IMG/VR virus record: IMGVR_UViG_3300038393_000457
Coordinates: 19,809 to 83,808 of that record
Source: a virus
Taxonomy: Duplodnaviria > Caudoviricetes
Length of the DNA stretch: 64,000 nucleotides
Strand: one strand, 5' to 3'
Made by a program: the position numbers and the translations under genes. Positions 6,063 to 27,293 of the stretch are shown piece by piece (the first letter of the stretch is position 1; each line of letters opens with the position of its first letter). The notes below the pieces were generated by a model. The model did not search any database, had not been told where the DNA came from, and saw nothing but the letters and a program-made list of their open reading frames with translations.

Positions 6063-7121
6063 ATGTATGAATTAGCTGTGTTTATCGGCAGATTTCAGCC
6101 GTTTCATTTAGGTCATAAGCTCGTTCTAGATAACGGCTTCAAGGTCGCCAAGAATGTCTTGGTGTTCCTCGGTTCGCATGATTCTCCTCGCACGATGGTC
6201 AATCCGTGGACGAGTGAAGAACGTGCCGGACTAATCAATTCGATCTATGCAAAGACTGAATTTGCTCATAGAATCGACTTCAAACCAATTGTAGATTTCC
6301 CATATAACGATACACTTTGGATGCGTCAAGTCCAGCAGGAAGTATATTCTCGCGGATTGACTGACGATCAGGTTTGTCTAATTGGTGAAAAGAAAGATGA
6401 AGGAACATCCTTCTATCTCAAGATGTTCCCACAATGGGATTATGTCGGTGTTCCTGATGTTCCAGACATCAATGCGACCGATATCCGTGAGTCATATTTT
6501 GAATATGAGAAGGCTCGAAATCATATTGGTTATTTCGACGGGTTTCAAAAGAATGTGCCGAAAGAAACTTTTGATTTCTTGGTTGATTTTTTCTCAGCAG
6601 AGGAAGATTATGAATATGTTAAGAACGAATTTGAATTCCAGTACCAATACGACAAAAAGTGGGAAAATTCTCCTTATCCACCGATGTTCATTACTGTTGA
6701 TTCCGTTGTTGTGCAAAGTGGACATGTGTTATTGGTCAAACGCCGTGCCCATCCTGGAAAAGGGCTTTGGGCTCTTCCAGGTGGTTACCTAAACAAAAAT
6801 GAAAAGTTGTTTGATGGGGCTATTCGTGAATTGATGGAAGAAACAAAGATCAAGGTGCCAATTGATGCACTCAAGGGATCATTCGTTGAAGTCCAAGTTT
6901 TCGATGCACCAAATAGATCAACTCGCGGCCGTATTGTAACTCATGCTCATTCCTTCAAACTGAAGGATGGCGGTAAGCTTCCCCGCATTAAAGGAAGTGA
7001 TGATGCAGAGAAAGCAAAATGGATACCTTTCTCTGATATCAAGCGTAGTGAACTTTTTGAAGACCACCACGCGATTTTAGAAACAATGATATCCAGACTT
7101 AACGGCGATAGACGCCAATAA
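6063..7121 (+). CDS. nadM: Bifunctional NMN adenylyltransferase / Nudix (ADP-ribose) hydrolase
   Basis: FIGRFQPFHLGH, NPWTSEER, Nudix box PGG-L---E------RELMEET, GSDDA-KAKW, FEDH. Confidence 0.95.
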   Translation: MYELAVFIGRFQPFHLGHKLVLDNGFKVAKNVLVFLGSHDSPRTMVNPWTSEERAGLINSIYAKTEFAHRIDFKPIVDFPYNDTLWMRQVQQEVYSRGLTDDQVCLIGEKKDEGTSFYLKMFPQWDYVGVPDVPDINATDIRESYFEYEKARNHIGYFDGFQKNVPKETFDFLVDFFSAEEDYEYVKNEFEFQYQYDKKWENSPYPPMFITVDSVVVQSGHVLLVKRRAHPGKGLWALPGGYLNKNEKLFDGAIRELMEETKIKVPIDALKGSFVEVQVFDAPNRSTRGRIVTHAHSFKLKDGGKLPRIKGSDDAEKAKWIPFSDIKRSELFEDHHAILETMISRLNGDRRQ

Positions 7122-11047: not shown

Positions 11048-11267
11048 GGTGGATGGCACCGGCGCGCGGCGGGGACTAAGGTATGAATTGGTAACATCTT
11101 ACATGGAATAAATTTGCTTCTATGGTGTAACGGCAGCACGGTGTCCTTATAAGACATAAGCGGTAGATGACCGCGCGGAACAGGTTCGAATCCTGTTAGA
11201 AGTACCAATCCTGGAGATCGGCTAGATTAGCTGGAACGGCACGGTTCGAAACCGTGATCCACTACCA
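11048..11267 (+). ncRNA. Interrupted type II tRNA-like element whose anticodon loop contains a complete tRNA-Ile
   Basis: GGTGGAT (11048) pairs with ATCCACT-ACCA (11257-11267); T arm CACGG-TTCGAAA-CCGTG; V arm CGGCTA-GAT-TAGCTG; GGGA-CT ... AA-TCCT anticodon-stem halves flank a 130-nt insert. Confidence 0.55.
11116..11207 (+). tRNA. tRNA-Ile(UAU) with long variable arm
   Basis: GCTTCTA/TAGAAGT-ACCA; GTGTC-CTTATAA-GACAT; V arm GCGGT-AGATG-ACCGC. Confidence 0.8.
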
Positions 11268-13990: not shown

Positions 13991-14361
13991 TGAAACTCGC
14001 TTTCTATAAAGTCGCACCTATGGCTGATGATGTGGACAATCTTGTTCCAATCAAATATGCTTACATGGATGGATATGTCTTTGGTGATCGTATACTTGAA
14101 GATGTAATGTTCAAATATTGGATTGATGACAAAGGTAAATTGAAGTCTGATTTTGCTAAACCGAATGGTTATACCAAAGGTTTGAATAAAAAGAAATGGC
14201 TCAAGGAATCTATTGGTTATGTTACCGCCGTGGAAGGTGTTGTTGAATTTCAGTTAATTGAGGATGTGCTTTCTGAAGCGGTATTGTGGGACCATGATAG
14301 ATCATGGAATGATCAACCATATACATTCTTTGATGAAGAACCACGATTTGTGACTAAGTAA
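13990..14361 (+). CDS. Hypothetical protein
   Basis: 123-aa coupled ORF. Confidence 0.6.
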   Translation: MKLAFYKVAPMADDVDNLVPIKYAYMDGYVFGDRILEDVMFKYWIDDKGKLKSDFAKPNGYTKGLNKKKWLKESIGYVTAVEGVVEFQLIEDVLSEAVLWDHDRSWNDQPYTFFDEEPRFVTK

Positions 14362-14369
14362 GGAATTAT

Positions 14370-14444
14370 TCCCTATTAGACTAACTGGAAGGTCGCTAGA
14401 CTCTGAATCTAGAAGTCCTGGTTCGAATCCAGGGTTGGGAGCCA
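14370..14444 (+). tRNA. tRNA-Gln(CUG)
   Basis: CTAGA-CTCTGAA-TCTAG; TTCGAAT T loop; GCCA end. Confidence 0.88.
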
Positions 14445-14457
14445 ATTCGAGGTTATC

Positions 14458-14721
14458 ATGGAATATGGTTATCGTCTAATTAATCCATCATATACAGAAG
14501 CCGCCGAATTGTGGCTCGCTAAATTGAATGTCGATTATGATTATGTAGATATTGGTTATTGGCGTCTCTATCGTATTCATTCGGATCAATTCAACAAGTT
14601 ACCTGATGACAGAGGCCCATATATCCCGGTTGATGAAGATCAAGGTTTCGGTCTGATGGATGACCAGATAGCAGAATCTGAAGCGGAAGAGGCTGGTGGA
14701 TGGATTAAGGTAGCACAATGA
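14458..14721 (+). CDS. Hypothetical protein
   Basis: GAGG RBS, coupled to next ORF. Confidence 0.55.
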   Translation: MEYGYRLINPSYTEAAELWLAKLNVDYDYVDIGYWRLYRIHSDQFNKLPDDRGPYIPVDEDQGFGLMDDQIAESEAEEAGGWIKVAQ

Positions 14722-14903
14722 GAAATATATTGGAATATCCTATAACCAAAGAAGAAGTAGAGACTGTTTTTGTTGATGCTTTCAATGACCATAATGGTGA
14801 AGTTGGTGGTCATCAACAAATGGTAATCCAGGACTTACTAGATAACTTTGATGAAATTTGGGAAAAGTATTATAAAGACAAGTTTGGATATGCCAATCAA
14901 TAG
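14718..14903 (+). CDS. Hypothetical protein
   Basis: Coupled ORF. Confidence 0.5.
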   Translation: MRNILEYPITKEEVETVFVDAFNDHNGEVGGHQQMVIQDLLDNFDEIWEKYYKDKFGYANQ

Positions 14904-15111
14904 TGATACATTCCTGGTAAATTCCATTATTGATTTATTGGAAGATCATGGTTTCAAAGGCTTGGACGGTCCAGCTATTGTATTCGAAATGCAATCCAGA
15001 CATTGGACCGCTGAGGAAACCAGAAAAGCATATATTGAATTGTGTAATGAAGGTATTGTAACTTACGTGCCTTCTGGTCGCTACAAATTGACTAAGTTTA
15101 TACCAAGATAA
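14890..15111 (+). CDS. Hypothetical protein
   Basis: Start at MPINSD overlapping previous stop. Confidence 0.5.
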   Translation: MPINSDTFLVNSIIDLLEDHGFKGLDGPAIVFEMQSRHWTAEETRKAYIELCNEGIVTYVPSGRYKLTKFIPR

Positions 15112-15204
15112 GGATGGTTGTCAGAGTGGGTTATTGTCCGACTTTGCTAAAGTCGCGAGTGTCTGAAAAGGCCTCCATGGGTTCGAATCCCATACCATCC
15201 TCCA
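15112..15204 (+). tRNA. tRNA-Ser(GCU)
   Basis: GGATGGT/ACCATCC-TCCA; CGACT-TTGCTAA-AGTCG; long V arm; U73 rather than the usual G73. Confidence 0.88.
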
Positions 15205-15264
15205 TTTTTTTAATTTATTTTTGTAATTTTGGTAAAAAAGAATACTAAGTAAACTCTCAAAGGC

Positions 15265-15292
15265 TTGACTACCTCAAATATTCTGATATTAT
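15265..15292 (+). promoter_or_regulatory. Sigma70-like promoter (late-like TACTAAGTA at 15243-15251 upstream)
   Basis: TTGACT-N16-TATTAT. Confidence 0.5.
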
Positions 15293-15304
15293 ATAGAAAT
15301 GAAG

Positions 15305-15503
15305 CATTGATTTAGGCAGATTCATTCGCCTGTAAAGAGCATTATCGCTCACCGCTGTAAGGTTGGTTATTGAATGAATCTTCCTAAATTAATGAATCCT
15401 CGATGCTAGTTTGTAACTGAGATTGTATCAAGAAGTGCAGGAATGATTGCAAAATTCCTGAAAAACAAACGACCCATCGGCTCCAGAGTCGTAATTCTGG
15501 AGA
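15305..15503 (+). ncRNA. Structured ncRNA candidate
   Basis: 12-bp stem 15305-15316/15383-15394 and 10-bp stem 15318-15327/15372-15381 around a multiloop; three further hairpins; no ORF. Confidence 0.5.
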
Positions 15504-15512
15504 CTTTACAAT

Positions 15513-15587
15513 GCACCGTTCGTCTATAGGAAGGACACTTGGCTTTCAACCAGGGCAGCAGGGGTTCGAATCCCCTACGGTGCACCA
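15513..15587 (+). tRNA. tRNA-Glu(UUC)
   Basis: GCACCGT/ACGGTGC-ACCA; CTTGG-CTTTCAA-CCAGG. Confidence 0.92.
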
Positions 15588-15645
15588 ATTACTACCCCTA
15601 CCAAGGGATCGAATAAAAGATCATAACTTTGGTAGTTTCATTTAT

Positions 15646-15695
15646 GCTCGCTCGCCGTAAGGTGTGCAACTGATCGAAAGATCAAGCGAGCACCA
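15646..15695 (+). ncRNA. 50-nt CCA-terminated mini tRNA-like RNA
   Basis: GCTCGCT/AGCGAGC-ACCA acceptor stem closing two GNRA hairpins (CGCC-GTAA-GGTG, TGATC-GAAA-GATCA). Confidence 0.65.
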
Positions 15696-15731
15696 ATTAT
15701 AATGTCCCTATAGTGAAACTGAATAGTCAAT

Positions 15732-15809
15732 GGTGCTGTATCCCTCGACGCTACGAACGTCGTGAAAGGTAATTGGATCATGCAGGTTCGACCCCTGTCA
15801 GCATCTCCA
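15732..15809 (+). tRNA. tRNA-Arg(ACG)-like RNA lacking a D arm at the normal position
   Basis: GGTGCTG/CAGCATC-TCCA; CGACG-CTACGAA-CGTCG starts 7 nt after the acceptor; T arm GCAGG-TTCGACC-CCTGT. Confidence 0.7.
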
Positions 15810-16386
15810 TTATTCTATTAGGTTCTCCATATAGAAGCTTAATAGATTTTTTTACTTGATCTAATTTCTCCTGTTGTTTGATGACAACGATTGGATTCTT
15901 TGGATCAAGAAATATGTTAAGATTAGGAAGATAGAAATCTGGAAAGTATTTGTGTTCTTTCCCATTTTTATCGATCCAAGGAATTGATGTTTTTGGTTGT
16001 TCCCAAATAATATTGGCTTCATCAAGTAATTGGGCCATTTTTACTTCCCAACCAGAATCAAAGATAAAGTTTTTGTAAATTTGACGTTTTATACCGGAAG
16101 CATTCTTTCTTTTGACCGCGATGAAACATTGGTCAGAACAAGTTGTTCCAATTTTCTTTTGTGACGCAAAATATTTTTGGCATACAGAACATTGTCGAAA
16201 ATATACCTTGGAATTGGGTCCACAAACATGTCTCTTGCTGAAGAAGCCTCTTTTACCAATTGTTGTTGATTTTATCCTTGTATAATTACGACCGCGTTTA
16301 AGGTTATTGTATGTTGCGGAACAAGATGAACCACAGAATTTTCTTTTTAATGGTATAAGTAAGTTGCAATTTAAACAATTATGCAT
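15778..16386 (-). CDS. Free-standing homing endonuclease-like protein (Zn-finger repeats + PD-(D/E)XK/TnsA-like domain)
   Basis: CLNC..KFCGSSC and CSVC..CSDQC; FDSGWEVKMAQLLD...YFPDFYLP...LDPK; AT-rich; 3' end overlaps the tRNA-like T arm. Confidence 0.75.
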   Translation of the reverse strand: MHNCLNCNLLIPLKRKFCGSSCSATYNNLKRGRNYTRIKSTTIGKRGFFSKRHVCGPNSKVYFRQCSVCQKYFASQKKIGTTCSDQCFIAVKRKNASGIKRQIYKNFIFDSGWEVKMAQLLDEANIIWEQPKTSIPWIDKNGKEHKYFPDFYLPNLNIFLDPKNPIVVIKQQEKLDQVKKSIKLLYGEPNRIMEMLTGVEPA

Positions 16387-16481
16387 TATAAATCTCCTTC
16401 TAAATGCTAATTGTATTTAGTAAAATTTCGACTCAAGATGTGGGTTCGAGTCCTGCTAGGGACGCCATTTAAGAGGTTGTT

Positions 16482-16712
16482 ATGACAGATTGGGGAACAG
16501 GTTGCACAGAGACGAGTGATGATTGTACTCTTCACAACCTTCATTGTGGTTATCCAAATTATCCTAAAGGTAAAAGGGATAAAGCAAAGATCAAAACTCC
16601 AACGGAGTTGATCGTGGAAAGAATGAGAAGTCTTGGTCTAGCTATCAATGACGCTCAGAGAATCGCCAATGAAGTTGTTCATGTACTTGGACAAAATGGT
16701 TATTTGAAATAG
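16482..16712 (+). CDS. Hypothetical protein
   Basis: GAGG RBS, 76 aa. Confidence 0.55.
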   Translation: MTDWGTGCTETSDDCTLHNLHCGYPNYPKGKRDKAKIKTPTELIVERMRSLGLAINDAQRIANEVVHVLGQNGYLK

Positions 16713-16718
16713 AAATTT

Positions 16719-16798
16719 GGGGGACGGGACTGCTTGGGGTGGTCGTCGCACTTGCAATGCGAATATTCAGCAGGGTTCAAATCCCTGGTTCTCCACCA
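16719..16798 (+). tRNA. tRNA-Ala(UGC)
   Basis: TCGCA-CTTGCAA-TGCGA; G3:U70 pair; ACCA end. Confidence 0.9.
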
Positions 16799-16800
16799 AA

Positions 16801-16919
16801 ATTAACATACACCAGCGCCGCGTGGTTATACTAATCACCTAAGACGTGAAAGCATTCGAAAGAATGGGCCTGTTGGAGCAAAATACGGTGCGGATAAACT
16901 TGCTTTCATGTATGTTAAT
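16801..16919 (+). ncRNA. Structured ncRNA candidate (about 120 nt)
   Basis: Terminal 10-bp stem ATTAACATAC/GTATGTTAAT; internal GTGAAAGCA/TGCTTTCAT. Confidence 0.5.
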
Positions 16920-16931
16920 ATTCTAGAAATA

Positions 16932-17174
16932 GTCAGCTAACAACTTCCCCGTAGAAGGGGTGGCCAGTCACAAATCGACGGCCTGACAAATGGTTAGCAC
17001 AATTCAGAGCTTAGACCGGGATCGATTCACTCAGAAGCTATCAGTGACCGGCTATGTGGTTGTTGTCTCGCAATGCTTCTGGCACGCAACCAGAAATTAT
17101 GCAGGTACCATTCGCGTGAAGATTTGGCTAAGCTAATGTGATAATCTGAGGCCTGCACCACATTAGATGTTGAC
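16932..17174 (+). ncRNA. Structured ncRNA candidate (about 240 nt) with probable pseudoknot
   Basis: Closing GTCAGC/GTTGAC; TGCAGG/CCTGCA crossed by CTAATGTG (17133-17140)/CACATTAG (17159-17166). Confidence 0.5.
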
Positions 17175-17204
17175 AGTAAGTAGAGTTTTTGTTAGTATGT
17201 GTTT

Positions 17205-17636
17205 GTTCGTTCTTAGAGAAATGCCGTGACAGAGTGATCACGTTTTACTTTTCGGACGGAATGTGCCCTGGTAAACAACTACGGGGCGGGAGTAGGAGTG
17301 AGAAGGATAAAGTCCTTGAAGACTGGAAAGTATGTTGTAGCGTCCAGTTGGAGAGAGCAACACGACAGAACATAGTCTAGAAAAGCGTGTTGTATCCGTT
17401 AATAACGGATGAGTCGTTGATAATGTACTAAGCGGCCACTTGGTAAGTTTGAGACTCTGACTGATTAATCCCCTCATGTTTGAAACTCGGAGGCCTTGAC
17501 AGCCACCCGGCATTTCTCTAAGATCGAATGATTGTAGACGCTAAGGTTTAATTTGACCTCAGAAGTGAAAACCAATAAAGATTGTTGGTGATAGTATCTT
17601 CGATTACGAGACGATTTGAAAGGGTCGGTTCTACAT
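17205..17636 (+). ncRNA. Large structured ncRNA candidate (about 430 nt)
   Basis: Perfect 16-bp long-range stem 17211-17226/17508-17523 plus many internal helices; no credible ORF. Confidence 0.6.
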
Positions 17637-17646
17637 TTGTTTTTAT

Positions 17647-17721
17647 ACGGGAGTAGCTCAGTGAAAGAGCGTCTGGCATCAGGTCAGAAGGTCGGTGGTT
17701 CAAGTCCATCCTTCCGTGCCA
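17647..17721 (+). tRNA. Degenerate tRNA with UCA at the anticodon position (probable pseudo-tRNA, Pro-like body)
   Basis: ACGGGAG/CTTCCGT-GCCA; TCTGG-CATCAGG-TCAGA; A33, and D loop lacks GG. Confidence 0.55.
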
Positions 17722-17726
17722 ATTAT

Positions 17727-17781
17727 GGAGGGCTTCCTAAGGGTATGGGAGCTAAGTGCGCTAGAGGTGCAACCTCCACCA
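17727..17781 (+). ncRNA. 55-nt CCA-terminated mini tRNA-like RNA
   Basis: GGAGG/CCTCC-ACCA closing two short hairpins. Confidence 0.55.
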
Positions 17782-17848
17782 GTTTTTGATATAGACAACG
17801 ACGATGATGATCTTACCTGTATTTGGAGAAATTTAATTTCTTCTTAGT

Positions 17849-20723: not shown

Positions 20724-20805
20724 GCCAAGTTCGCATAGCGGCGATTGCAGCACTTTTGTAAAGTGCCATTCCACATCGGGGGTTCGAGTCCCTCACTTGG
20801 CTCCA
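20724..20805 (+). tRNA. tRNA-Thr(UGU), enlarged variable region
   Basis: GCCAAGT/ACTTGGC-TCCA; GCACT-TTTGTAA-AGTGC; 11-nt variable region. Confidence 0.88.
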
Positions 20806-21163: not shown

Positions 21164-21715
21164 GTGATGTTAAATAAAATAGAATGTCAAAAATTATATG
21201 ACCAAGGTTTCTCTTTAAAAGAGATTGCAGAAAAATTTGGTACCTATAAATTGAAGATTCAAAGACTTGGTCTGGATATTAGGACAAGTCATGAGTCAAG
21301 AGAATTTCGTAATAACCACAAGTTAACAACGGAACAAAAGAAAAAATTATCATTGATAGCCATCAAAAGAGGTTTTGGTGGTACAAACAGAAGAAAGACA
21401 TTTCTATACAAAAATGTTATTTTGGAAAGTTCTTATGAATTGAAAGTGGCTAAAGAATTAGATAATAATGGAATTTTGTGGGAACGACCCAAAAGATTTC
21501 ATTGGATTGATAATTTTGGAATTAAGCACCATTATACGCCAGATTTTTATCTTCTAGATTATGATCTATATCTTGATCCCAAAAATGATTATCTAATTAA
21601 AAAAGATAAAGACAAAATTGAAAGAGTTCAAAACCAAAACAACATAAAGATATTTGTTATTGATAAGTATCATTTGACGTGGAAAGATATTTCTGTTATA
21701 ATAGGTAAATCTTAA
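21164..21715 (+). CDS. Free-standing endonuclease-like protein (HTH + PD-(D/E)XK/TnsA-like domain)
   Basis: LESSYELKVAKELD...HYTPDFYL...LYLDPKND; same family as 15778-16386; AT-rich. Confidence 0.75.
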   Translation: MMLNKIECQKLYDQGFSLKEIAEKFGTYKLKIQRLGLDIRTSHESREFRNNHKLTTEQKKKLSLIAIKRGFGGTNRRKTFLYKNVILESSYELKVAKELDNNGILWERPKRFHWIDNFGIKHHYTPDFYLLDYDLYLDPKNDYLIKKDKDKIERVQNQNNIKIFVIDKYHLTWKDISVIIGKS

Positions 21716-22489: not shown

Positions 22490-22574
22490 GCGGGTGTCGG
22501 ATAGCGGCTATTCCGCTTCCTTGCCAAGGAAGAGCCGAAAGGCATCATGGGTTCGAGTCCCATTACCCGCTCCA
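22490..22574 (+). tRNA. tRNA-Gly(GCC) with long variable arm
   Basis: GCGGGTG/TACCCGC-TCCA; CTTCC-TTGCCAA-GGAAG; V arm GCC-GAAA-GGC. Confidence 0.88.
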
Positions 22575-22824: not shown

Positions 22825-22908
22825 ATCGGTGCTAGGGTAGTGGGATACCTAACTGTCTCCAAAACAGTCGCCTAGAGCTAGGGGGTTCGATTCCTCACAC
22901 CGGTGCCA
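22825..22908 (+). tRNA. tRNA-Trp(CCA), enlarged variable region
   Basis: ATCGGTG/CACCGGT-GCCA; ACTGT-CTCCAAA-ACAGT; 12-nt variable region. Confidence 0.82.
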
Positions 22909-27125: not shown

Positions 27126-27208
27126 GCACACGTCCCATAGCGGCCATTGGAGCAGACCCTTAATCTGTCGCGAAAGCATCGTCGGTTCGAGTCCGACCGT
27201 GTGTACCA
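27126..27208 (+). tRNA. tRNA-Lys(CUU) with long variable arm and C33
   Basis: GCACACG/CGTGTGT-ACCA; GCAGA-CCCTTAA-TCTGT; V arm GC-GAAA-GC. Confidence 0.82.
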
Positions 27209-27216
27209 ATTCTAAC

Positions 27217-27293
27217 GTCCTTGTGGTATAAAGGAATAGTGCCCCTCTTTCCTAAAGAGGTGTATGCAGGTTCGAATCCTGTCAAGGGCACCA
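27217..27293 (+). tRNA. tRNA-Arg(CCU)
   Basis: GTCCTTG/CAAGGGC-ACCA; CCTCT-TTCCTAA-AGAGG. Confidence 0.88.

What the first reader, a model, noticed from the sequence alone, without database searches (positions are those of the whole stretch)
15732..15809. tRNA-Arg(ACG)-like RNA with the D-loop motif moved 3' of the anticodon arm
Seen: acceptor stem, a 7-nt linker, a perfect anticodon arm, then GGT-AATTGG-ATC (a D-loop-like hairpin containing the GG) in the variable position, a normal T arm and TCCA. The order acceptor-anticodon-D-like-T is a rearranged cloverleaf. Inference: it could still form the D/T elbow through a different topology.
Basis: partly seen in the sequence, partly recalled or inferred. 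Interest (0 to 1): 0.7.

Follow-up and report, generated by a model that had tools for sequence, protein, structure and literature searches.

The report
Phage arginine tRNA with rewired D-arm
This 78-base gene in an uncultured soil phage is very probably a working arginine tRNA in which part of the D-arm lies after the anticodon arm, a non-cloverleaf layout shared by many phages that I found described in no paper.

Summary
The element at 15732-15809 is real. It belongs to a widespread, mostly phage-borne class of arginine tRNAs whose core is not wired as a cloverleaf.

However, the "7-nt linker" is not a linker, and the GGU/AUC hairpin is possible in only 5 of 62 relatives. Across 62-75 relatives, the bases after U8-A9 instead pair with the three bases just 5' of a conserved UAAU(U)GGA motif (62/62; 62/62 with all four Watson-Crick types; 43/62). 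The D-stem therefore encloses the anticodon arm, and the D-loop equivalent (GG, then A) follows it.

- **Model scores:** a family covariance model gives the window copy 74 bits. The Rfam tRNA model gives 24.9, below threshold.
- **Anticodons:** all 75 aligned members carry arginine anticodons.
- **Tertiary signal:** a Levitt-pair-like covariation is kept (A with U 70/70; G with C or G 14/14).
- **Role in this phage:** this is the only ACG tRNA among the phage's 31 tRNAs. CGU/CGC/CGA make up 59% of its arginine codons.
- **Other genomes:** in five other phage genomes the rewired gene is likewise the sole carrier of its anticodon.

Charging and decoding are inferred, not shown. I found no paper on this layout. 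This scan has reported the same class before on other DNA.

The parts
15732..15738 (+). Acceptor stem, 5' strand
   Evidence: Pairs 7/7 (one G-U) with 15799-15805. The stem covaries at all 7 pairs in 75 relatives.
15739..15740 (+). U8-A9 equivalents (TA)
   Evidence: Invariant in the 59-sequence alignment A1.
15741..15745 (+). D-stem strand placed 5' of the anticodon arm. C15742 and C15743 pair with G15769 and G15768. C15744 faces A15767 as a mismatch, as in other ACG-type members. T15745 is the single joint base.
   Evidence: In the family these positions pair 62/62, 62/62 (four Watson-Crick types) and 43/62. Shifted registers pair only 23-38% of the time, and 0 of 5000 shuffles reach the observed value. 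See also helix 2.
15746..15762 (+). Anticodon arm: 5-bp stem and 7-nt loop, anticodon ACG at 15753-15755
   Evidence: All 5 pairs covary in relatives. All 75 aligned relatives carry Arg anticodons.
15763..15766 (+). Four-base bulge between the anticodon stem and the returning D-stem strand
   Evidence: The stretch from the anticodon stem through the returning D-stem strand is 7 nt in 36 of 62 relatives and 6-8 nt in 59. Its second base often pairs with the joint base (40/62).
15767..15770 (+). D-stem strand placed 3' of the anticodon arm (A, G, G, then the first T of the motif)
   Evidence: Partner of 15741-15744.
15771..15777 (+). D-loop-like segment with the GG (15775-15776) and the A that follows it (15777), proposed equivalents of positions 14-20
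   Evidence: Conserved motif in alignment A1. Among copies not selected by motif, GG is kept in 13/13 and the following A in 12/13. A20 is the main bacterial ArgRS determinant (PMC9976931).
15778..15781 (+). Short connector to the T stem. T15781 is the proposed position-48 equivalent.
   Evidence: It covaries with the second base after the D-stem: A with T in 70/70, G with C or G in 14/14, and G never with T.
15782..15798 (+). T arm: 5-bp stem and a TTCGA-type 7-nt loop
15799..15809 (+). Acceptor stem 3' strand, discriminator T (15806) and encoded CCA (15807-15809)
   Evidence: CCA is encoded in 43 of 62 relatives.
15778..16386 (-). Neighbour, not part of the RNA: a 202-aa ORF for a PD-(D/E)XK-type endonuclease on the opposite strand. 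Its last 32 bases overlap the tRNA's 3' end.
   Evidence: Weak Pfam matches to Phage_endo_I and TnsA-like N-terminal domain; PHROG endonuclease families. Homologues lie beside or within about 1 kb of rewired tRNA-Arg genes in other viral contigs.
15704..15731 (+). Context: 5' remnant (acceptor strand, TA, D-arm-like part) of another, canonical-type tRNA, ending where the rewired tRNA begins
   Evidence: Its first 7 bases are the perfect complement of 16457-16463. It aligns with the 5' part of the window's canonical tRNA-Arg(CCU).
16435..16467 (+). Context: 3' remnant (T arm, acceptor strand, discriminator G, CCA) that matches the 5' remnant
   Evidence: Its best weak DNA matches lie under annotated phage tRNA-Arg genes.

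Best explanation
15732-15809 encodes a functional arginine tRNA (anticodon ACG, probably edited to ICG by the host's TadA). It belongs to a widespread phage class with a rewired core.

**Shown:**
- After U8-A9 comes one strand of the D-stem, then directly the anticodon arm.
- After the anticodon arm come a short bulge, the other D-stem strand, a D-loop-like segment (with the GG and the following A), a short connector, and then a normal T arm, acceptor strand and CCA.
- In effect, two neighbouring internal segments of a normal tRNA (10-21 and 22-45) are strung in swapped order.

**Inferred:**
- The D-helix still stacks on the anticodon stem.
- The GG still docks on the T loop, and the Levitt-type pair still forms, so the molecule keeps an L shape.
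- Host ArgRS charges it through the A after GG, plus C35 and G36.
- It reads CGU, CGC and CGA, the phage's commonest arginine codons.
For: **Architecture in the window.**

**Same architecture elsewhere.**
- It occurs, with compensatory stem changes, in named phages. These are Xanthomonas Xoo-sp13, Stenotrophomonas CM1, Rhizobium RHph_I1_18, and Escherichia Bas93 and Antha.
- It occurs in 62 distinct IMG/VR sequences found by one exact pattern.

**D-stem covariation.**
- The three pairs form in 62/62, 62/62 and 43/62 sequences.
- Shifted registers pair in 23-38%, and 0 of 5000 shuffles reach the observed value.
- Whole structure: 95.7% of cells paired against 63% in shuffles, with 18 of 20 pairs showing double changes.

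**Model scores.** The family model scores the window copy 74.2 bits.

**Anticodons.** All 75 aligned members have Arg anticodons: UCU 40, ACG 19, CCU 6, UCG 5, GCG 3, CCG 2. All contain C35 with G/U36, which with A20 form the bacterial ArgRS identity set (PMC9976931).

**D-loop-like motif.** In copies not chosen by motif, GG is kept in 13/13 and the following A in 12/13.

**Levitt-like covariation.**

**Genomic setting.**
- The gene lies co-oriented in a 27-tRNA array and has an encoded CCA.
- It is the only ACG tRNA among the record's 31 tRNAs.
- CGU+CGC+CGA make up 59% of Arg codons in long ORFs.
- In four phage genomes that are at least 98% complete, and in phage Antha, the rewired gene is the only carrier of its anticodon. 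In four of these five genomes no other Arg tRNA was called or annotated.

**Weak RNA evidence.** A rhizosphere metatranscriptome run holds an identical 219-nt contig. It spans 15590-15808, from 3 nt after the tRNA-Glu CCA to C75 of this tRNA.
Against: - No direct evidence of charging, editing or ribosomal use exists.
- The L-shape is inferred from sequence logic only.
- In this copy the D-helix has only two G-C pairs in the family register.
- RNAalifold on the MAFFT alignment does not call the short long-range helix.
- Most family members were collected with patterns that fix part of the motif. Covariation counts also ignore phylogeny.
- The RNA contig could be DNA carry-over, and it includes a 142-nt unprocessed leader.
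- The gene is overlapped by an antisense endonuclease ORF and sits between remnants of another tRNA, so it might be a passenger of selfish DNA.
Confidence: 0.7

Rival explanations
1. It is a tRNA mimic that is not used in translation. Examples would be a decoy that soaks up a host anti-phage nuclease or enzyme acting on tRNA-Arg, or a charged RNA used for something other than decoding.
For: The fold is non-canonical, and no translation factor has been tested on it. Phage tRNA arrays such as this one hold other odd tRNA-like RNAs. Conservation of ArgRS identity elements would also fit a decoy for an enzyme that reads the same features.
Against: Six different Arg anticodons occur on one scaffold, and the rewired gene fills the otherwise empty slot for its anticodon in 6 of 6 genomes examined. 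The anticodon matches the phage's commonest Arg codons. A decoy would not need isoacceptor diversity or a complete acceptor stem with CCA.
Confidence: 0.15
2. This would be a truly D-armless tRNA with a passive 7-nt linker and a small D-loop-like hairpin in the variable position.
For: The GGU/AUC hairpin can form in this copy at -18.5 kcal/mol, about the same as the family fold.
Against: The hairpin is possible in only 5 of 62 relatives, and its third pair forms in 11/62. The same G pairs with the 'linker' in 62/62 with four Watson-Crick types. In the one member where the first pair is inverted to G-C, the change is compensated on the 'linker' side (L032 copy).
Confidence: 0.05
3. It is a decaying or neutral passenger of a homing-endonuclease cassette, or a pseudogene, with no function of its own in this phage.
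For: An antisense endonuclease ORF overlaps its 3' end. The pair sits between the two halves of a broken canonical-type tRNA.
Against: All stems are intact and the family model scores it 74 bits. It is the phage's only CGN-reading tRNA. The same sequence, with no differences, is present in several soil and rhizosphere runs.
Confidence: 0.07
4. It is the 95-nt cloverleaf tRNA-Arg that ARAGORN draws from 15715, with an ordinary D-arm and a long variable arm.
For: ARAGORN reports it.
Against: That fold needs two mismatches in the acceptor stem's 7-bp region and a D-stem with only one standard pair plus one weak pair. The perfect acceptor stem starting at 15732 is used by both the Rfam model and the family model. 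The upstream bases belong to a remnant of another tRNA. ARAGORN calls nothing at the equivalent genes in 7 other genomes or loci.
Confidence: 0.02

Closest known systems
Canonical bacterial and phage class I tRNA-Arg (Rfam RF00005), e.g. this window's own tRNA-Arg(CCU) at 27217-27293
   Same: It has a 7-bp acceptor stem, U8-A9, and an anticodon arm whose loop matches that of E. coli tRNA-Arg(ACG) as I recall it (from memory). It also has the GG and following A of the D-loop, a T arm nearly identical to the window's tRNA-Arg(CCU), a discriminator and CCA. tRNA-Arg(CCU) is the best-scoring ordinary tRNA under the family model (31 bits), which suggests descent from tRNA-Arg.
   Different: There is no D hairpin 5' of the anticodon arm. 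The two D-stem strands lie on either side of the anticodon arm, and the D-loop follows it. The Rfam score is below the gathering threshold.
D-arm-lacking mitochondrial tRNAs, e.g. human or bovine mt tRNA-Ser(AGY) (PMC9427863; review PMC7609411)
   Same: As drawn in two dimensions, it is a three-way junction with no D hairpin and an anticodon helix extended by extra pairs.
   Different: The mitochondrial forms have lost the D-loop GG and the canonical elbow contacts, and they need adapted partner proteins. Here the D-stem pairing, the GG, the following A and a canonical T loop are all conserved. The setting is bacterial translation.
Circularly permuted tRNA genes of the red alga Cyanidioschyzon merolae (from memory, not checked here)
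   Same: The gene order of tRNA segments differs from the textbook order.
   Different: There the permutation is undone by processing and the mature tRNA is a normal cloverleaf. Here the swap is internal, between acceptor strands that are in normal order, so it must persist in the mature RNA.
allo-tRNAs with 8/4 or 9/3 acceptor/T branches (PMC5389517)
   Same: They are naturally occurring, non-standard tRNAs of bacteria and phages that were found by sequence mining.
   Different: allo-tRNAs keep the cloverleaf order and change only helix lengths. This class keeps the helix lengths (7/5) and changes the order of segments.

Membership tests
Canonical cloverleaf tRNA (Rfam RF00005) | 7-bp acceptor stem with discriminator and 3' CCA | tested here: met
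   15732-15738 pairs with 15799-15805; T15806; CCA at 15807-15809.
Canonical cloverleaf tRNA (Rfam RF00005) | D hairpin (stem 10-13/22-25 closed by the D-loop) between position 9 and the anticodon arm | tested here: not met
   The Rfam alignment replaces 15 model positions with 4 nt. Only 5 nt lie between TA and the anticodon stem.
Canonical cloverleaf tRNA (Rfam RF00005) | Anticodon arm (5 bp, 7-nt loop, U33) and T arm (5 bp, T-loop consensus) | tested here: met
Canonical cloverleaf tRNA (Rfam RF00005) | Score at or above the family's gathering threshold | tested here: not met
   24.9 bits against 29. It is not listed in the gathering-threshold scan.
   The window copy forms 2 of the 3 pairs (C-G, C-G, C/A). 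ACG- and GCG-type members commonly leave this third pair unformed, as L006, L074 and L077 do.
   15770-15777.
   74.2 bits, full length. The window sequence was 1 of 59 seed rows, so this is partly by construction. Members outside the seed score 49-76 bits.
D-armless mitochondrial-type tRNA | The D-arm is replaced by an unpaired connector, and the D-loop/T-loop elbow elements are lost | tested here: not met
   The connector bases pair and covary. The GG and a canonical T loop are conserved.
Class II tRNA (long variable arm) | A conserved hairpin in the variable region, plus a normal D-arm | tested here: not met
   The hairpin is possible in 5 of 62 relatives, and there is no D hairpin.
Substrate of bacterial arginyl-tRNA synthetase | Identity set A20, C35, U/G36 and the discriminator (PMC9976931) | tested here: inconclusive
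   C35 and G36 are present. An A follows the GG as A20 does in a D-loop, and the discriminator is U. Whether that A sits where ArgRS expects it depends on the 3D fold, which could not be tested.
Substrate of bacterial arginyl-tRNA synthetase | Actual aminoacylation with arginine | not testable with these tools
   This needs an in vitro charging assay, or an acid-gel Northern or tRNA-seq of infected cells.

The most novel reading that the evidence does not exclude
The rewired gene may be the self-protecting cargo of a homing-endonuclease cassette. In this reading, a PD-(D/E)XK endonuclease that cuts canonical tRNA-Arg genes travels with a replacement tRNA-Arg. The swapped segment order of that replacement removes the cut site.

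The cassette would then destroy the resident gene, whose two remnants flank it here at 15704-15731 and 16435-16467, yet keep the phage supplied with the tRNA. Selfish DNA would thus be what spreads non-cloverleaf tRNAs among phages.
Probability: 0.12. Interest if true: 0.9.

Novelty: new variant of a known kind. Interest (0 to 1): 0.8.

Why it matters
The cloverleaf order of tRNA segments is treated as universal outside animal mitochondria. [quoted passage not shown]

A natural, widespread tRNA class that serves bacterial translation with swapped internal segments would matter in several ways:
- It would show that the L-shape can be reached by another chain path.
- It would give a natural test of what ArgRS, TadA, RNase P, EF-Tu and the ribosome really read in a tRNA.
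- It would offer a ready scaffold for orthogonal tRNA engineering.
- It would expose a blind spot in tRNA annotation of phage genomes. ARAGORN missed 7 of the 8 copies I checked and misfolded the eighth. One record labels its copy tRNA-OTHER, and in three other records that I looked at it lies unannotated.

Members occur in cultured E. coli phages, so the question can be tested directly.

Tried and rejected
- **ARAGORN's 95-nt fold from 15715.** Rejected: it has a poor acceptor stem and a poor D-stem.
Rejected at family level.
- **Thermodynamics of the single sequence.** It cannot choose between the folds.
- **RNAalifold on the MAFFT alignment.** It returns only three arms: neither the hairpin nor the short long-range helix. 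MAFFT puts the extra base of the 6-nt subclass in a column that breaks the register, so I relied on position-anchored counts and the model-based alignment.
- **Rfam.** No family other than sub-threshold tRNA matches.
- **A second family member in this phage record.** None found.
- **The split-tRNA arrangement around five other endonuclease-linked members.** Not found; it is specific to this window.
- **RNA run X11.** It gave no cover for most of 14300-17800 apart from two places. Absence of cover there means nothing. The contig shows A at 15753, which is uninformative about inosine editing, because contigs drop variants and this one looks like a precursor.
- **Literature.** Eight searches on D-armless, non-cloverleaf, atypical and phage tRNA wording, and on the motif letters, found no description. 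The 2020 review of non-canonical tRNAs does not mention phages.
- **Rfam search of the 17190-17540 RNA.** It gave nothing.

Full report
**What is in the sequence.** The window is part of an 83.8-kb IMG/VR virus record, estimated 47% complete. The same DNA occurs in soil and rhizosphere metagenomes.

The bases 15732-15809 read as follows:
- a 7-bp acceptor stem (one G-U);
- TA, then five bases;
- a perfect 5-bp anticodon stem with a 7-nt loop carrying ACG;
- 19 bases that contain a GG;
- a canonical T arm, the acceptor 3' strand, T, and CCA.

The Rfam tRNA model aligns exactly 15732-15806 but deletes the D-arm. It reaches only 24.9 bits against a threshold of 29. ARAGORN does report a tRNA-Arg(ACG), but as a 95-nt molecule starting at 15715. 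That fold has two mismatches in the acceptor stem's 7-bp region and a poorly paired D-stem.

**Relatives.**
- A short blastn against phage records found the same layout in Xanthomonas phage Xoo-sp13, Stenotrophomonas phage CM1 and Rhizobium phage RHph_I1_18. In the two annotated records it is unannotated, and the CM1 record carries no annotation. In the Rhizobium phage it sits between tRNA-Ile and tRNA-Phe. A UCU version occurs in Escherichia phage Bas93. Acceptor and anticodon stems differ by compensatory changes.
- One exact-pattern scan of IMG/VR returned 81 loci, with 62 distinct family members.
- Two further scans with a different fixed pattern returned 25 and 91 loci.
- The same pattern found only 38 loci in 185,579 bacterial and archaeal genomes. 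The family model confirmed 11 of them, mostly short MAG contigs or Rhizobiales scaffolds.
- Large phage records carry one to three copies each.
- The phi92-like Escherichia phage Antha has a UCU member annotated only as "tRNA-OTHER".

**Secondary structure.** I anchored positions on the anticodon stem and on the first T of the conserved UAAU(U)GGA motif, not on pairing.
- The three bases that precede the single joint base 5' of the anticodon stem pair with the three bases just 5' of the motif. The counts are 62/62 (C-G), 62/62 (C-G, G-C, A-U and U-A all seen) and 43/62.
- Registers shifted by one to three positions pair in 23-38% of cells.
- None of 5000 partner shuffles reaches the observed count.
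- In a copy not chosen by my pattern, the otherwise invariant C-G pair is inverted to G-C.
- On a model-based alignment of 75 members, 95.7% of cells are paired against 63% in shuffles, and 18 of 20 pairs show double changes.

The seven bases after the acceptor stem are therefore U8-A9 plus one D-stem strand. The D-stem encloses the anticodon arm, and the D-loop-like segment follows it. For this single sequence, energy alone cannot choose between the folds. RNAalifold on the MAFFT alignment calls only the three obvious arms.

In the window copy the third pair is a C/A mismatch. Many ACG- and GCG-type members leave that pair unformed, so this is a subclass trait and not decay.

**Signals of a conserved core.**
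- In 13 copies found by the model and not by my motif pattern, the GG is kept in 13 and the following A in 12.
- In a set collected without fixing these two positions, the second base after the D-stem strand covaries with the base just before the T stem. A goes with U in 70 of 70 cases. G goes with C (6) or G (8) and never with U.
- This is the behaviour of the 15:48 Levitt pair of ordinary tRNAs. Shared ancestry could contribute to the pattern.

**Evidence on function.**
- All 75 aligned members carry arginine anticodons: UCU 40, ACG 19, CCU 6, UCG 5, GCG 3, CCG 2. These share C35 and G/U36. Together with A20 they make the bacterial ArgRS identity set, in which A20 is the main determinant (PMC9976931).
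- The window gene is co-oriented with 26 other tRNA genes and encodes CCA.
- It is the only ACG tRNA among the 31 tRNAs of the record. The other two Arg tRNAs (CCU, UCU) are ordinary cloverleaves.
- CGU, CGC and CGA are 59% of arginine codons in the record's 49 long ORFs.
- In four phage genomes that are 98-100% complete, and in phage Antha, the rewired gene is the only carrier of its anticodon. In four of these five genomes no other Arg tRNA was called or annotated. ARAGORN missed all four of the metagenomic copies.
- A rhizosphere metatranscriptome run holds an identical 219-nt contig spanning 15590-15808. It runs from 3 nt after the CCA of tRNA-Glu to C75 of this tRNA. This is only a weak hint of a 3'-matured precursor, because contigs cannot prove transcription.

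**How it most likely works (inference).**
- The connectivity forces the D-helix to stack on the anticodon stem through the end that normally faces the D-loop.
- The strand after U8-A9 then occupies the site of positions 22-26 and runs straight into the anticodon stem.
- The strand after the anticodon arm occupies the site of 10-13 and runs on into a segment equivalent to 14-20.
- A short connector, equivalent to 46-48, leads to the T arm.
- This equals a swap of two adjacent blocks, 10-21 and 22-45.
- From textbook tRNA structure (my knowledge, not tested here), all three new joints connect nucleotides that are neighbours in the normal L-shape: 8-9 lie next to 21-23, 44-45 lie next to 10, and 20-21 lie next to 46-48.
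- A tandem duplication followed by loss of the outer copies could produce such a swap.

**Context.**
- On the opposite strand, a 202-aa ORF (15778-16386) overlaps the tRNA's last 32 bases. It has weak PD-(D/E)XK endonuclease matches.
- Homologues lie beside or within about 1 kb of rewired tRNA-Arg genes in other viral contigs, for example L048, L062, L010, L026, L006, L255 and L247. In one 172-kb genome the only homologue is 49 nt from the rewired gene.
- The tRNA-endonuclease pair sits between a 5' remnant (15704-15731) and a 3' remnant (16435-16467) of another tRNA. The acceptor halves of the two remnants are perfectly complementary, and the 5' part resembles the window's canonical tRNA-Arg(CCU).
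- This split arrangement was not found around five other endonuclease-linked members.
- It suggests, but does not show, a cassette that replaced a canonical tRNA gene.

**Comparison with what is known, and novelty.**
- It is not a member of the cloverleaf tRNA family as Rfam defines it: the D hairpin and the threshold are both not met. By all sequence signs, however, it should work like a tRNA-Arg.
- It is not a mitochondrial-type D-armless tRNA, because the D-stem pairing, the GG and the T loop are all kept.
- Eight literature searches found no description. The 2020 review of non-canonical tRNAs never mentions phages.
- Earlier notes of this scan describe the same class in other genomes, and mention Ile and Tyr versions. 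I reached the same reading before seeing them, and tested it independently here.
- I also saw two members with a Thr (UGU) anticodon.

**Limits.**
- There is no direct evidence of processing, charging, editing or decoding.
- Most members were collected by patterns that fix part of the motif.
- The covariation counts are not corrected for relatedness.

Noticed in passing
window 15704-15731 and 16435-16467: These are two halves of another tRNA: a 5' acceptor strand with TA and a D-arm-like part, and a T arm with 3' acceptor strand, G and CCA. The acceptor strands are perfectly complementary and lie about 730 nt apart. Instead of an anticodon arm, the rewired tRNA-Arg and an antisense endonuclease gene lie between them. 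The 5' half resembles the window's tRNA-Arg(CCU).
   Followed up: partly
window 15778-16386 (-); also window 21350-21631; L048:4210-4620; L062:5854-6093; L010:3733-4095; L026:7924-8127: A PD-(D/E)XK-type endonuclease family recurs inside phage tRNA arrays. It often lies within 50-700 nt of a rewired tRNA-Arg gene. In one 172-kb phage genome its only copy is 49 nt from that gene.
   Followed up: partly
window 17205-17530: This is a roughly 320-nt RNA candidate closed by a 15-16-bp helix and preceded by a TTGACA/TAGTAT promoter-like site. Its fold has z = -5.1. Metatranscriptome contigs at 17238-17492 reach a depth of about 250, against 6 for the tRNA-Arg region. There is no Rfam match. From memory only, several internal motifs look like conserved regions of RNase P RNA; this is an untested lead.
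   Followed up: partly
window 11116-11207, 20724-20805, 22490-22574, 22825-22908, 27126-27208: Several tRNAs that are normally class I have enlarged variable regions in this phage. Ile(UAU) has a 5-bp variable arm, Gly(GCC) has a 3-bp one, and Thr(UGU), Trp and Lys(CUU) have 11-12-nt loops.
   Followed up: no
window 17647-17721: ARAGORN labels this 75-nt, class I-shaped tRNA with anticodon UCA as SeC. Rfam scores it 50.9 bits as an ordinary tRNA. Its loop has A where U33 is expected. It may be a UGA reader.
   Followed up: no
L170 (match at 6350-6376, - strand) and L187 (12986-13012, - strand): Two viral contigs carry the same rewired layout with a UGU (threonine) anticodon. The design is therefore not strictly limited to arginine.
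   Followed up: no
L005:254-368 (Escherichia phage Bas93): In the UCU-type member of Bas93, the acceptor stem continues into about 11 more base pairs of leader-trailer helix, and no CCA is encoded. The gene lies just after an HNH endonuclease gene.
   Followed up: no
   Followed up: no
L166:4077-4203 (Rhizobium phage RHph_I1_18, record 15076-15202): Locus tags jump from EVB91_034 to EVB91_036 exactly where the unannotated rewired tRNA-Arg(ACG) lies. It looks as if a predicted feature was dropped at that spot.
   Followed up: no
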